From the human T2T-CHM13v2.0 reference genome, Homo sapiens, in NCBI RefSeq assembly GCF_009914755.1, contig NC_060947.1: a stretch of 64,000 nt of DNA. One strand, 5' to 3'. The notes beneath the pieces were generated by a model. The model was given only the letters and a program-made list of their open reading frames with translations, searched no databases and had not been told where the DNA came from. Position 1 is the stretch's first letter, and the number at the start of each line of letters is the position of its first letter. Positions 47,701-52,889 of the stretch are shown piece after piece. Both the position numbers and the translations under genes were made by a program.

Positions 47701-49044
47701 TCATTGTTCCTCCAACCACAGAGATGTGAGCCCACCTAGTGACAAAGTACTAGAAAAGAGAGCAAACTGTCAGCTTCATCCTTGTCTGTCAGAGCATGAG
47801 ACTGGTTTAGATGACTTTGCCTAGTTGATGTTAAGCACATTCTCATTTCCCATGTTAAGCCTTACAGATCAACTAGACTAGAGTAGTGCTGTGATATGTT
47901 CTCACCTCTTTTCCCAGCCCCTAGGTTACCTCATCACACCACCATGGATTAGACTGTTAGTATTTGTTGCTTTTATTACAGATGATTTCTAATATGTAAT
48001 TCATTTTCATTAAAGGATGATGCTTTATTCTTCCTTGAAATTTTCTGTTCTCCCTCCCCTTTTTTTCCTATTCTGTTCAGGGACAGGAGGGATGAGGCAC
48101 ATTTATTCCCAAAAAGGAGAGCAGATGTAGTGGTTGGTAGGGATGGCAGGTTCTCCTGAACTTACAATTCCATATTTTGCATATTTATATTCAAATGGTT
48201 CAACAAATATATAGGAAAGGATCCTGCAGGACCCTACAGTTTCCAGAACTGATGATTTGTCATCTGAAAAGGTATTTTTCTTCATAGCTTGAGAAGAAGT
48301 TAAAGCAAGGCTCTTAGTATACATTCAATCTAAAATTCAACAAAAGATTCTTCTCATTTACAGAATGAAATAAATGCATATTATTTCGCCATACTTTCAC
48401 AAGATTTTATTTGCTACTACATAGACACCTAGGTTATATGCTACCCTAACCAATAAATATTCTATGACCAAGTTTATGTATTTCCTATACAGGCAGATTT
48501 TTTGTATGTTTTGAAACATTCTAAGACAGTAGTGTTTATTCTCACATATGGTTATATACATATATATAGAGAGAGAGACTTGTTTTTGATAAGTGATGTA
48601 TGGTTCATGTAAGTGTCTTTACAATGTATTATATTTAAGGTTTGATTTTGTAGACATGTTTAGTTTGATTTTTGGAGTTTCAAAGCTTATGAAAATCATT
48701 TTGGTTCAGAATAATAAAATAAGTTAGATAATGAAATTTATATGCATTTTCATATGTCTGTACAGAACTTGATATAAATACTCAAACATTCTTCCTTTAT
48801 ATACCTTTAGGTTTAACTTTGATTTGATTTGGTAACATAAGATTAACAGTGATATAAATTTTGGTTCCTCTAGAGAAAGAAATACTTGAGACCACTAAAA
48901 TTAAAAATCTTGCATTAACATCCTATAATTGTATGAAAATTTAATAAGCTTCAGAAAATATAATATATTTGGAGCCTTTTATAACATAGTGTAGCATTTG
49001 CTTGGAACATGGAATGAAAATTAAGAGTGAATCCCAGGTTTTAG

Positions 49045-52000
49045 CCAAGGGCAGGAAGGTGGCAAAGGGAGGCGAATCCGAGTGGGTGGAGGGAGGGGAA
49101 GGGCGAGAGGAGAAAAAGGTGGGAGGAGGACCAGGTGGGAGGGTGGCGGCTCCCTCAGGACCCAGCAGGGGCAGCGCGATGAGGCGGGTGACCCTGTTCC
49201 TGAAAGGCAGCCCTAAGAACGGAAAGAGTAAGAGACTTAAATGAATATGACTGATTGTCACACAAAAGTGTGTCCTACTTCAACACTCAGCATTCAAGAA
49301 ATATTTATCAAAGACCTGCTGTAAGCCAGGTGGTTGCTGTATATGGAACTTTATCTGATTTGCTTTCTGTGGCCAGCAGTAAACTCGGCATAAAAGCCAC
49401 CAGTGTGTATAATGGGAAAGGTGGACTGATTGATGATATTGCTTTGATCAGGGATGATGATGTTTTGTTTGTTTGTGAAGGAGAATCATTTATTGATCCT
49501 CAGACAGATTCTAAGCCTCCTGAGGGATTGTTAGGATTCCACACAGACTGGCTGACATTAAATGTTGGAGGGCGGTACTTTACAACTACACGCATTACTC
49601 CTACCAGGTTGTAGCATGCATCTTTTTGAGAGAGCAGCTGGGATCGAGTATACTCTTGACTTAAATGTGTTTGTTTATAAAGACAAATGGAGAAATCAAT
49701 TTGTTTCCCTGAATTCTAAGGAGCACTTTAGTGAATAAAGAACCTGACAGTATGCTGGCCCACATGTTTAAGGACAAAAGTGTCTGGGGAAATAAGCAAT
49801 ATCATAGAGGCGCTTTCTTAATTGACCGAAGTCCTGAGTACTTTGAACCCATTTTGAACTCCTTGCGTCATGGACAGCTCATTGTAAATGATGGCATTAA
49901 TTTATTGGGTGTGTTAGAAGAAGCAAGATTTTTTGGTATTGTCTCATTGATCTAACACCTGGAAGTGGCAATAAAGAATTCTCAACCACCGGAGGATCAT
50001 TCACCAATATCCCGAAAGGAATTTGTCCGATTTTTTGCTAGCAACTCCAACCAAGTCAGAACTGCGATGCCAGGATTTGAACTTCAGTGGTGCTGATCTT
50101 TCTCGTTTGGACCTTCGATACATTAACTTCAAAATGGCCAATTTAAGCCGCTGTAATCTTGCACAGGCAAATCTTTGCTGTGCAAATCTTGAATGAGCTG
50201 ATCTCTGGATCAGTACTTAACTGTGCAAATCTCCAGGGAGTCAAGATGCTCTGTTCTAATGCAGAAGGAGCATCCCTGAAACTGTGTAATTTTGAGGATC
50301 CTTCTGGTCTTAAAGCCAATTTAGAAGGTGCTAATCTGAAAGGTGTGGATATGGAAGGAAGTCAGATGACAGGAATTAACCTGAGAGTGGCTACCTTAAA
50401 AGATGCAAAGTTGAAGAACTGTAACCTCAGAGGAGCAACTCTGGCAGGAACTGATTTAGAGAATTGTGATCTATCTGGGTGCGATCTTCAAGAAGCCAAC
50501 CTGAGAGGGTCCAACGTGAAGGGAGCTGTGTTTGAAGAGATGCTGACACCACTACACATGTCACAAAGTGTCAGATGAGAATTTTAGAGGCTGGAGGAAG
50601 ATGTACAAGATGAAAATGTTTTCCTTATCACTTTTCTTTCTCCACTCACTCAGTTGTCTAGAAGAAATAACACTGTAAGGAAATTAAAAAAAAAAAACAC
50701 ATTTAGAGGATTATGCTTGTTCTGAGCGGTGCATAAGGGAAAAAACTGACTTTTTTTCCATATTCTGATTTTTAACAGAAAAGCACTCATTTAATAGATG
50801 TAGGGAAACTAGATATTGCTGCCTTTTGAACGGGGTAGGGGGGTTTACCTGGTTTTATGACCAGGAATAGTATCTATTATATTTGCTTTTAAATAGGCAT
50901 GATGTGGAAATACCATCTTGGTTTGAGATGCATTTGAGGATTTTAATTTATGGAAAGTACAACATATGCAATTATATTTATTGAATACCTAGATGCAGTA
51001 TGGATATTTAAATTGTTAAAACTTTATGAAAACTTGGAAAAGGTTGTTCAGGTTTATAAATAGCTTTAGTGACGCCTCCCCTCTTTAAATACCTGTCATA
51101 CCATATGAATATGGTGAGATTAGACTCCCTAAGACTCTTTTCAGGTTCATTTTTATAATGTTTACTTTTTAGGTTAGGACAAAACAGTAGCTAAATTAAA
51201 GTAATATCCAGTTCTTACTGATTGAGACAGAGTGGAAAGAAAGACATCGTTGTACTTCACTGTCATTCCAAAGGTACAGTGGAACTCCGGATGGAGGAAT
51301 AACTTACCTATCACTACAACACTTATAAATGAGAATTTCTCAGAATTTCATTCTAGGCAAGTTCCACTCAACACCAGACCAAGCAATTCTATCTATTTAC
51401 ACTATTAGCTTAGTTTTCTCATACAATCATCACAAGCATAGGAAGATACTTCAAAACCAAAAAACCAAGGTGCATCATTAATATTCATTTAATTCAAATA
51501 CCAAATAGTTTACATAGGGCCAGCTTAGAAATAGATACTAAATCCAGAGCTACTGCAATCAAAGCTTATATGAGTGAATATGGTAGAGTTGCCTGCTAAA
51601 AGGCAATGTAATATAATTGCAGCTAGAACCCTACAGTGGAGAATGAGGAATTTTAAACACACATTTTATTATAGCCACCAAAAAACAGATGTAAAGTAAA
51701 AATAAAGGCATTTGGCTGGTCCAAGATGTAATACCAATCAGTCAGCACCTGTGATTCTTTTACTTATATTTTTTGTGTTTTTTTAAACAAATTTTAGCCC
51801 AATTTTCTTGAGTCATTATCTCTCTGCAGCAGCAGAGGAAGGGCCTGTACCTCCCTACCAATGACCTGGTGTCCTTATTTTCTACCCCAAGAGCAGGGAT
51901 ATTAGCTGTGTCCAAATGGGTTCTGAATTCTACAGACTCATCAACATGAGGCAAGGAATCATTGAAAACCACCTGTGTCTCCTTTGGGAGAATGACATAT

Positions 52001-52418
52001 CTTTAGTATTTACGTAGCTTATTCTTCTATATCTACATATGCAAAGCTTTCCTTAACAGTAAAGGGTACATATGCATAGTGGGAGGAGATCAGACCTTTA
52101 CAAGTGAAGGAAAGCAACTTCAGAAATGAATTATTTTCTTTGCTTTGTTATTTTTACCAAGACAGAGAAGTATTGTATTGAGAGATAATCTATTTTCATA
52201 ATCAATATATGCCTAAATTATATTTAAATCATTTCACTCTGTACTATATTTTCAGGAATTATAGAATGTGTTATTCATTCACTTAAAGGTACCTCTGTAG
52301 AAATAACCTAAAACTGCAGAAGGATCTGAAAGATCTAAACATGGTGTGCTTAGAAACTGCAGATTTTAGATCTAATGTATACAGCATTAATAAATGATAT
52401 AAAGTGTTGAAAAAAAAA
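49045..52418 (+). pseudogene. KCTD9: Processed pseudogene (retrocopy) of KCTD9 (KHA, BTB/POZ and pentapeptide-repeat protein); possibly human KCTD9P2, number not verified
   Basis: ATG at 49179 gives MRRVTLFLKGSPKNGK. Later blocks read VVAVYGTLSDLL...WLTLNVGGRYFTTTR, STLVNKEPDSMLAHMF...LIDRSPEYFEPILN (BTB) and pentapeptide repeats ending EEMLTPLHMSQSVR* (TGA 50576-50578). No long introns. Disablements: TAA 49953-55, +1 T at 50031-36, TGA 50194-96 (likely CGA>TGA), 2-nt deletion near 50203. AATAAA 52389-94, poly(A) from 52410. TSD aagagtgaatcccaggttttag (49023-44) / aagagtgaaacccaggttttag (52419-40), preceded by TT (TT|AAGA, L1 endonuclease-like site). Confidence 0.96.
50579..52409 (+). other. 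3'UTR portion of the KCTD9 retrocopy, with polyadenylation signal
   Basis: Repeat-free stretch between the stop codon and poly(A), inside the TSD pair; AATAAA at 52389-52394, 15 nt before the A-tail. Confidence 0.88.
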
Positions 52419-52889
52419 AAGAGTGAAACCCAGGTTTTAGATATACCTCTACCAGTTACTTGCTATATGATTTTGGGAAAACTATTTTTTTGTCTCTGAG
52501 CTTTAATGCCATTATCTGTAAAATGCAGTGTTACAATAGATCATTGTAAGTTATAGCCAATATCAAAATTTTTCTTATGGCTGATAGGAGGTTTATTTCC
52601 CAAATCTCTCTCTTTAGAAATGCTTAGGTATGTCTACAAGCATATAGCTTAATATTTCAAACAAAACATTGATGTTTACCTTTATTAAATTTTTTCACAG
52701 CTTTAATTTTTGAGTACCTATGCCTCCAAACCAGTCAAATCAATTTTTCCAAACCTATGCCTCCAAACCAGTCAAAATAACTTCTATATATTGAAGTTTT
52801 TGAAAGCACATGTAAAATTCAGGATAAATTACCATTGCCATGAAAAATGCTATAGGTTAGGTGTTCTTTAAAAAAATTATATACATCTA

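What the first reader, a model, noticed from the sequence alone, without database searches (positions are those of the whole stretch)
49179..49730. KCTD9 retrocopy preserves an unproductive splice isoform with two extra, stop-containing blocks
Seen: the KCTD9 reading frame is interrupted by 103 nt (49227-49329, between ...AACGGAAAG and GTGGTTGCT, c.48/49) and by 128 nt (49593-49720, splitting CG|G of Arg104, c.311/312). Removing both restores continuous KCTD9 coding sequence. Neither block has its own TSD or poly(A), and neither starts with GT, so they are not later TE insertions or whole retained introns. Each shifts the frame and adds an early stop (TGA 49242-44; TAG 49612-14). Recalled: these positions match KCTD9 exon junctions. 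Inference: L1 machinery reverse-transcribed an NMD-type KCTD9 mRNA in the germline, so the copy was non-coding from the start and records ancestral poison splicing of KCTD9.
Basis: partly seen in the sequence, partly recalled or inferred. Interest (0 to 1): 0.8.

Follow-up and report, generated by a model that had tools for sequence, protein, structure and literature searches.

The report
KCTD9 pseudogene copied from mis-spliced mRNA
A dead, intronless copy of the KCTD9 gene on the X chromosome was made from an alternatively spliced, non-productive KCTD9 messenger RNA, so it preserves two extra pieces of intron; this is a tidy example of a phenomenon that is already known.

Summary
KCTD9P2 (window 49045-52412, +) is a full-length L1-type retrocopy of chr8 KCTD9. 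It has a 22-nt target-site duplication and an A11 tail.

- **Block 1** (49227-49329) has one other match in the genome. That match lies inside parental intron 1, where 102 nt are bounded by a pyrimidine tract plus AG upstream and GTAATG downstream. It is a cassette exon.
- **Block 2** (49593-49720) is the last 128 nt of parental intron 4, directly preceded by tttttgtttcccAG. It is an upstream alternative 3' splice site for exon 5.
- **Junctions:** both blocks sit exactly at exon junctions (c.48/49 and c.311/312).
- **Stops:** the in-frame TGA and TAG are shared by the retrocopy and today's parental DNA, so the copy was non-coding at birth.
- **Age:** both blocks differ from their intronic sources by about 3%, like the rest of the copy, so they are as old as the insertion.
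- **Other copies:** 0 of 5 other KCTD9 retrocopies carry either block. One of them (chr8:31.5 Mb) joins exon 1 to exon 4.

Not tested: whether the isoform was a regulated, NMD-controlled "poison" form or splicing noise, and what primate orthologues show. Retrocopies that archive transcript isoforms are already described, so interest is modest.

The parts
49023..49044 (+). 5' target-site duplication (22 nt)
   Evidence: Matches 52419-52440 at 21 of 22 positions. It is preceded by TT, giving a TT|AAGA L1-endonuclease-like target.
49045..49226 (+). Copy of KCTD9 exon 1 (5' UTR 49045-49178; ATG at 49179; 48 coding nt)
   Evidence: Aligns to chr8:25733600-25733419 at about 96%. The parental exon ends GGAAAG|gtaacg.
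49227..49329 (+). Block 1: cassette exon taken from inside parental intron 1, with in-frame TGA at 49242-49244
   Evidence: Its only other match in the genome is chr8:25725599-25725699. The parental copy is 102 nt and is flanked by tatttttttaccctaatgacAG| and |GTaatg. There are 3 substitutions and 2 indels against the parent. The TGA is shared with the parent.
49330..49592 (+). Copy of KCTD9 exons 2-4 (122 + 44 + 97 nt), precisely joined
49593..49720 (+). Block 2: the last 128 nt of parental intron 4, included through an upstream alternative 3' splice site; in-frame TAG at 49612-49614
   Evidence: Contiguous with exon 5 in the parent (chr8:25715010-25714883) and preceded there by cacgtttttgtttcccAG. 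4 of 128 substitutions. The TAG is shared with the parent.
49721..52409 (+). Copy of KCTD9 exons 5-12 including the 3' UTR. Later defects: TAA at 49953-49955 (E182*), TGA at 50194-50196 (R262*), a 1-nt insertion near 50031, and a 2-nt deletion near 50206
52410..52420 (+). Poly(A) tail (A11), about 20 nt after an AATAAA signal
52419..52440 (+). 3' target-site duplication (its first two A's overlap the tail)

Best explanation
KCTD9P2 is an L1-mediated processed pseudogene. It was reverse-transcribed from one full-length, polyadenylated KCTD9 mRNA molecule that carried two non-canonical splicing events.

1. A roughly 102-nt cassette exon from the middle of the 11.9-kb intron 1 was included.
2. 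An alternative 3' splice site 128 nt upstream of exon 5 was used.

Each event places an in-frame stop early in the message: codon 22, and 7 codons into block 2. The template could not encode KCTD9, and the copy was dead on arrival.

Shown here: the intronic origin of the blocks, their splice signals, their exact position at junctions, the shared stops, the equal divergence, the TSD and the poly(A) tail.

Inferred: the event happened in the germline or early embryo, since it is fixed in the genome, roughly 12-25 million years ago. The template is an NMD candidate by the position rule.

Undecided: whether the isoform was a recurrent low-level product of two good splice sites (I lean about 55%) or a one-off splicing error.
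For: - **Collinear mapping.** The retrocopy maps in 13 collinear pieces onto the 35-kb parental locus. Piece 2 is block 1, inside intron 1. Piece 6 is block 2 plus exon 5 as one uninterrupted 191-nt match.
- **Splice signals.** The cassette has acceptor ...tttttttaccctaatgacAG| and donor CAG|GTAATG. The alternative acceptor is ...tttttgtttcccAG|. In a crude comparison, the cassette donor matches 7 of 9 consensus positions, against 6-8 for the 11 constitutive donors. Pyrimidine counts are 13 and 15 of 20, against 11-16 for the constitutive acceptors.
- **Uniqueness.** Block 1 has 2 matches in the genome and block 2 has 3. None lies outside KCTD9 sequence.
- **Same age as the rest.** Substitutions are 3 of about 96 in block 1 (gap-tolerant alignment), 4 of 128 in block 2, 4 of 133 in the 5' UTR, and 70 of 3120 over the whole copy.
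- **Shared stops.** The TGA and TAG are present in both parent and copy.
- **Retroposition marks.** TSD, A11 tail and no introns.
- **Canonical junctions are older.** 0 of 5 other, older retrocopies carry either block.
Against: - No transcript evidence (GENCODE, ESTs, RNA-seq) could be consulted, so the isoform has no independent confirmation.
- A plain global alignment of block 1 gave 11 mismatches and 1 gap (10.8%), which would make it look older than the rest. That figure drops to 3 substitutions plus a 4-nt and a 3-nt indel when gaps are allowed, so it depends on the alignment.
- The first stop lies only 21 codons after the AUG. From general knowledge, such start-proximal stops often escape NMD, so 'NMD-type' is weaker than the position rule suggests.
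- Primate orthologues were not available.
Confidence: 0.93

Rival explanations
1. The template was an incompletely processed pre-mRNA, and the blocks are retained intron sequence rather than products of alternative splice-site choice.
For: Block 2 is contiguous with exon 5 in the gene, so it is formally a partial retention of the 3' end of intron 4.
Against: Only 102 of the 11,949 nt of intron 1 and 128 of the 912 nt of intron 4 are present. Each is cut exactly at an AG or GT. All 9 other introns are removed precisely. The rest of each intron was spliced out, so spliceosomal use of these sites is required.
Confidence: 0.03
2. The blocks entered after insertion, either by DNA-level exchange with the chr8 gene (gene conversion) or by template switching of the L1 reverse transcriptase onto KCTD9 pre-mRNA.
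For: Nothing found here supports it directly. Template switching by L1 reverse transcriptase is a known process (general knowledge).
Against: Conversion or switching would have to start and stop exactly at two splice-site pairs and exactly at exon junctions of the copy. The blocks show the same roughly 3% substitution divergence as the flanking exon-derived sequence. Later conversion would predict lower divergence.
Confidence: 0.02
3. The blocks are unrelated later insertions, such as transposable-element fragments or filler DNA.
For: None.
Against: Each block's only non-self matches in the genome are KCTD9 intronic sequence, in the correct introns and in the correct order. There is no TSD or tail of their own.
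Confidence: 0.01

Closest known systems
Processed pseudogenes as 'genomic fossils' of splice variants. Shemesh et al. 2006 PNAS: I saw only its citation in reference lists, and the paper is not held. Carelli et al. 2016, PMC4772013: one passage read, stating that retrocopies served as archives of transcript isoforms.
   Same: An intronless L1-made copy whose differences from the reference mRNA are splice-site-bounded pieces of parental intron, so it records an alternative isoform of the parent.
   Different: This is a specific, apparently undescribed case with two independent unproductive events on one molecule. It therefore records that the two events occurred together. KCTD9P2 appears in 2 of about 8.4 million searched papers. 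I saw only that search listing, in which neither title nor abstract contains the name.
Poison (PTC-containing) cassette exons and NMD-coupled alternative splicing (general knowledge; no paper read)
   Same: Including the cassette or using the alternative acceptor introduces a premature stop many exon junctions upstream of the last one.
   Different: No evidence here of NMD sensitivity, regulation, autoregulation or sequence conservation. The first stop is close to the start codon, a context in which NMD is often inefficient (recalled).
The five other KCTD9 retrocopies in this genome (chr8:31.5 Mb, chr17:20.06 Mb, chr9:37.5 Mb, chr11:112.19 Mb, chr5:37.75 Mb)
   Same: Same parent and same full-length 5' end.
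   Different: All are older: 3.7-5.6% from the parent, against 2.2% for KCTD9P2. 0 of 5 carry either block. Four have the canonical exon 1-2 and 4-5 junctions, and one joins exon 1 to exon 4.

Membership tests
L1-mediated processed pseudogene (retrocopy) | An intron-bearing parental gene elsewhere, with its introns absent from the copy | tested here: met
   The parent is on chr8 with 12 exons and 11 GT..AG introns. 9 introns are removed completely and 2 are removed except for the splice-bounded blocks.
L1-mediated processed pseudogene (retrocopy) | A 3' poly(A) tail at the mRNA cleavage site | tested here: met
   A11 at 52410-52420, about 20 nt after AATAAA. The parental genomic sequence has no A run there.
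L1-mediated processed pseudogene (retrocopy) | Flanking target-site duplication and an A/T-rich endonuclease target | tested here: met
   22-nt TSD with 21 of 22 positions identical. The target reads TT|AAGA. The L1 consensus TT|AAAA is recalled.
Retrocopy of an alternatively spliced isoform | Extra segments map inside the corresponding parental introns, in order | tested here: met
Retrocopy of an alternatively spliced isoform | Extra segments are bounded in the parent by canonical AG/GT signals and join the neighbouring exons exactly | tested here: met
Retrocopy of an alternatively spliced isoform | Extra segments are as old as the rest of the copy | tested here: met
   3 of about 96 and 4 of 128 substitutions, against 70 of 3120 overall. 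The numbers are small, and the block 1 figure depends on gap treatment.
Retrocopy of an alternatively spliced isoform | Independent transcript evidence for the isoform (annotation, ESTs, RNA-seq junctions) | not testable with these tools
   No transcript databases are available. Literature searches for KCTD9 with 'nonsense-mediated' (2 papers) and with 'alternative splicing' (14 papers, 12 listed) showed nothing on KCTD9 isoforms in titles or abstracts. The one review I checked by passages does not discuss KCTD9 splicing.
NMD-coupled 'poison' splicing | A premature stop more than about 50-55 nt upstream of the last exon junction | tested here: met
   The stops lie in the second exon and in the extended exon 5 of a 13-exon message. 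The 50-55 nt rule is recalled.
NMD-coupled 'poison' splicing | The isoform is stabilised when NMD is blocked, with regulated or conserved inclusion | not testable with these tools
   No expression data and no other mammalian genomes are available.

The most novel reading that the evidence does not exclude
KCTD9 has run a long-standing unproductive-splicing programme in the germline, using the intron-1 cassette and the upstream acceptor of exon 5, possibly together on the same molecules. These isoforms were abundant enough to be captured by L1. 2 of the 6 KCTD9 retrocopies in this genome derive from frame-disrupting isoforms: this one, and the exon 1-to-4 copy at chr8:31.5 Mb. That would hint either at substantial germline unproductive splicing of KCTD9 over tens of millions of years, or at a bias of L1 trans-mobilisation towards poorly translated, stop-containing messages.
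Probability: 0.12. Interest if true: 0.5.

Novelty: new member of a known kind. Interest (0 to 1): 0.25.

Why it matters
The copy gives a dated, single-molecule record showing that two cryptic-looking KCTD9 splice sites were already used by the spliceosome roughly 12-25 million years ago, and were used together on one transcript. Short-read RNA-seq cannot show that kind of linkage. In practice it explains the three-"exon" RefSeq model of KCTD9P2. It also warns that reads from real KCTD9 transcripts containing the cassette or the extended exon 5 could be mis-assigned to the X-linked pseudogene, and the reverse. It adds no new mechanism, because retrocopies that archive isoforms are an established idea.

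Tried and rejected
1. **Later TE or filler insertion.** Rejected by the block-only genome searches.
2. **Whole-intron retention.** Rejected, because only 102 of 11,949 nt and 128 of 912 nt are kept.
3. **Block 1 being much older than the rest.** A plain global alignment gave 10.8%. I set this aside after a gap-tolerant alignment placed the excess in two small indels in a CACACAAAA stretch.
4. **The chr10:37.6 Mb hit to block 2 as a second retrocopy with the block.** Rejected. It is collinear with about 1.5 kb of parental genomic DNA including introns 4-6, interrupted by repeats, so it is a DNA-level duplicate.
5. **A suspected ancient-repeat (MIR-like) origin for the 3' half of block 1.** This came from memory only. 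No repeat library is available, and the genome search found no further copies, although that search is insensitive to old repeats. Left untested.
7. **Shemesh et al. 2006.** Not held. What it found is therefore cited only through another paper's one-line description.
8. **Literature on KCTD9 unproductive isoforms.** Searches for KCTD9P2, KCTD9 + nonsense-mediated and KCTD9 + alternative splicing gave nothing relevant in the listings. Supplementary tables of NMD-target studies were not examined and might list KCTD9.

Full report
**What is in the window**

The stretch 49045-52412 (+) is an intronless copy of KCTD9. It is bounded by a 22-nt direct repeat, 49023-49044 and 52419-52440, identical at 21 of 22 positions. 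It ends in A11 about 20 nt after an AATAAA signal. The pre-insertion target reads TT|AAGA, close to the L1 endonuclease preference (that consensus is recalled).

A search of the whole 3.1-Gb assembly with the 3368-nt copy gave 37 matches. They fall into four groups:
- the copy itself;
- a set of short pieces spread over chr8:25,703,254-25,733,600 on the minus strand, which is the intron-bearing parent;
- five other intronless copies (chr8:31.5 Mb, chr17, chr9, chr11, chr5);
- a fragment on chr10.

**Checking the observation**

- AACGGAAAG ends at 49226, 103 nt follow, and GTGGTTGCT starts at 49330.
- ACTACACG ends at 49592, 128 nt follow, and GAGCAC starts at 49721.
- Translated from the ATG at 49179, the frame stops at TGA 49242-49244.
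- In the KCTD9 frame entering block 2, the frame stops at TAG 49612-49614.

I fetched 35 kb of the parental locus and aligned the copy to it. This gave 13 collinear segments. Splice-aware borders define 12 parental exons, all 11 introns are GT..AG, and the joined exons encode a 389-aa open frame.

**Where the blocks come from**

Block 1 searched alone has 2 matches in the genome: itself and chr8:25725599-25725699 (91%, E 1.8e-33). That site lies inside the 11,949-nt intron 1, about 7.7 kb downstream of exon 1. There the homologous 102 nt are preceded by tatttttttaccctaatgacAG and followed by GTAATG. This is the signature of a cassette exon.

Block 2 searched alone has 3 matches: itself, chr8:25714883-25715008 (98%, E 1.5e-53), and chr10 (88%). 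In the parent it is the last 128 nt of the 912-nt intron 4 and runs without a break into exon 5. It is immediately preceded by cacgtttttgtttcccAG. This is an upstream alternative 3' splice site.

By a crude count, these sites look no worse than the constitutive ones:

| Site | Measure | This site | Constitutive range |
|---|---|---|---|
| Cassette donor | matches to the 9-position donor consensus | 7 of 9 | 6-8 (11 donors) |
| Cassette acceptor | pyrimidines in the 20-nt tract | 13 of 20 | 11-16 |
| Alternative acceptor of exon 5 | pyrimidines in the 20-nt tract | 15 of 20 | 11-16 |

No proper splice-site scoring model was available.

**Were the blocks there from the start?**

Three lines of evidence say yes.

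1. The junctions are exact, and the remainder of each intron is gone. Only splicing of the template explains this simply.
2. The in-frame TGA of block 1 and TAG of block 2 are present in both the copy and today's parental introns. By parsimony they were in the template.
3. The divergence matches the rest of the copy:
   - block 2 differs at 4 of 128 sites;
   - block 1 differs at 3 of about 96 aligned sites, plus a 4-nt and a 3-nt indel, under a gap-tolerant alignment;
   - a plain global alignment of block 1 instead reports 11 mismatches and 1 gap, so this figure depends on the alignment;
   - the 5' UTR differs at 4 of 133 sites;
   - the whole copy differs at 70 of 3120 sites, or 2.24%.

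I used the chr10 duplicate as an outgroup for block 2. Of the 4 differences, 3 fall on the retrocopy lineage. The fourth is a CpG site and is ambiguous. The alternative acceptor AG and its pyrimidine tract are also present in that older duplicate.

Because block 1 is 102 nt in the parent, its frameshifting length in the copy (103 nt) may be secondary. The stop codon does not depend on this.

**Age and decay**

I polarised the 70 differences using the five older retrocopies. This assigns 43 to the KCTD9P2 lineage (1.4% of 3120 sites), 25 to the parental lineage and 2 as ambiguous. In the 3' UTR the two lineages changed about equally, 17 against 23.

I set this against recalled per-lineage primate divergences: about 1.5% to the orangutan split, about 3% to the macaque split, and lower on the X. 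On that basis I infer an age of roughly 12-25 million years. This is an inference and was not tested.

Besides the blocks, the copy has since acquired E182* (TAA 49953-49955), R262* (TGA 50194-50196), a 1-nt insertion near 50031 and a 2-nt deletion near 50206. Its 22 lineage-specific coding changes fall 8, 3 and 11 on codon positions 1, 2 and 3. That gives no clear sign of constraint.

**Relatives**

Of the 5 other retrocopies, 0 carry block 1 or block 2. Four join exon 1 to exon 2 and exon 4 to exon 5 canonically. They are older, at 3.7-5.6% from the parent against 2.2% for KCTD9P2. The canonical junctions therefore predate this copy, and the blocks are not an ancestral constitutive structure.

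The chr8:31.5 Mb copy joins exon 1 directly to exon 4 (…AACGGAA-G|ATCCTCAG, with one A missing from a run). It omits exons 2 and 3, which total 166 nt, a frame-shifting length. This looks like a second isoform fossil, although a later deletion with borders at the junctions by coincidence is not formally excluded.

The chr10 fragment is collinear with about 1.5 kb of parental genomic DNA including introns. It is a DNA-level duplicate, not a retrocopy.

**Mechanism**

- **Shown:** an mRNA from the normal KCTD9 start site to the normal poly(A) site, with a cassette exon and an extended exon 5, was copied into an intron of IL1RAPL2 with L1 hallmarks.
- **Inferred:** this happened in germline or early embryonic cells.
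- **By rule only:** the template was an NMD candidate, since both stops lie many junctions upstream of the last one. The first stop is only 21 codons from the AUG. From general knowledge, that context often blunts NMD.
- **Open:** nothing here shows that the isoform is regulated, recurrent or conserved. Splicing noise at two decent sites remains a live reading.

**Comparison with what is known**

Retrocopies have been used as archives of transcript isoforms. A passage in Carelli et al. 2016 (PMC4772013) says so and cites Shemesh 2006, Huang 2008 and Podlaha & Zhang 2009. The Shemesh paper itself is not held, so I did not read it.

KCTD9P2 occurs in 2 searched papers (listing only). Searches pairing KCTD9 with 'nonsense-mediated' (2 papers) or 'alternative splicing' (14 papers) showed nothing on KCTD9 isoforms in the listings. 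One KCTD review, checked by passages, does not discuss KCTD9 splicing. Supplementary tables were not examined.

RefSeq's three-piece model of KCTD9P2 already implies the two insertions.

**Verdict**

This is a new example of a known kind of feature, of modest interest.

Noticed in passing
L002:4181-4459 (G000 C8, about 31,502,026-31,502,304, minus strand): Another KCTD9 retrocopy joins exon 1 directly to exon 4, omitting exons 2 and 3 (166 nt, a frame-shifting length). One A is missing at the junction. It probably records an exon-skipping isoform, which would make 2 of 6 KCTD9 retrocopies derive from unproductive isoforms.
   Followed up: partly
L015:4629-6737 (G000 C10, about 37,607,629-37,609,737): An intron-bearing duplicate of about 1.5 kb of KCTD9 genomic DNA (end of intron 4, exon 5, intron 5, exon 6, part of intron 6), at about 87-92% identity and interrupted by Alu-like repeats. 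It is a DNA-level duplicate, not a retrocopy. It keeps the alternative acceptor AG.
   Followed up: partly
L013:4751-5008 (G000 C8:25,725,751-25,726,008), about 50 nt upstream of the parental cassette exon: Two Alu-like fragments in opposite orientation abut each other just upstream of the cassette exon's acceptor. They were recognised by eye and from Alu-type cross-matches, with no repeat library. Whether they influence cassette inclusion is unknown.
   Followed up: no
window 50585-52409 (3' UTR part of KCTD9P2) versus the parental 3' UTR: Since the copy was made, the parental 3' UTR has changed about as much as the pseudogene (23 against 17 polarised substitutions over 1818 sites). This suggests little constraint on most of the KCTD9 3' UTR.
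   Followed up: partly
window 49045-52412: By the hub's gene table, the retrocopy lies in the sense orientation inside a very large IL1RAPL2 intron and brings its own AATAAA signal. The RefSeq pseudo-exon borders (49224/49328, 49591/49720) are 1-2 nt off the splice-aware borders (49226/49330, 49592/49721).
   Followed up: no
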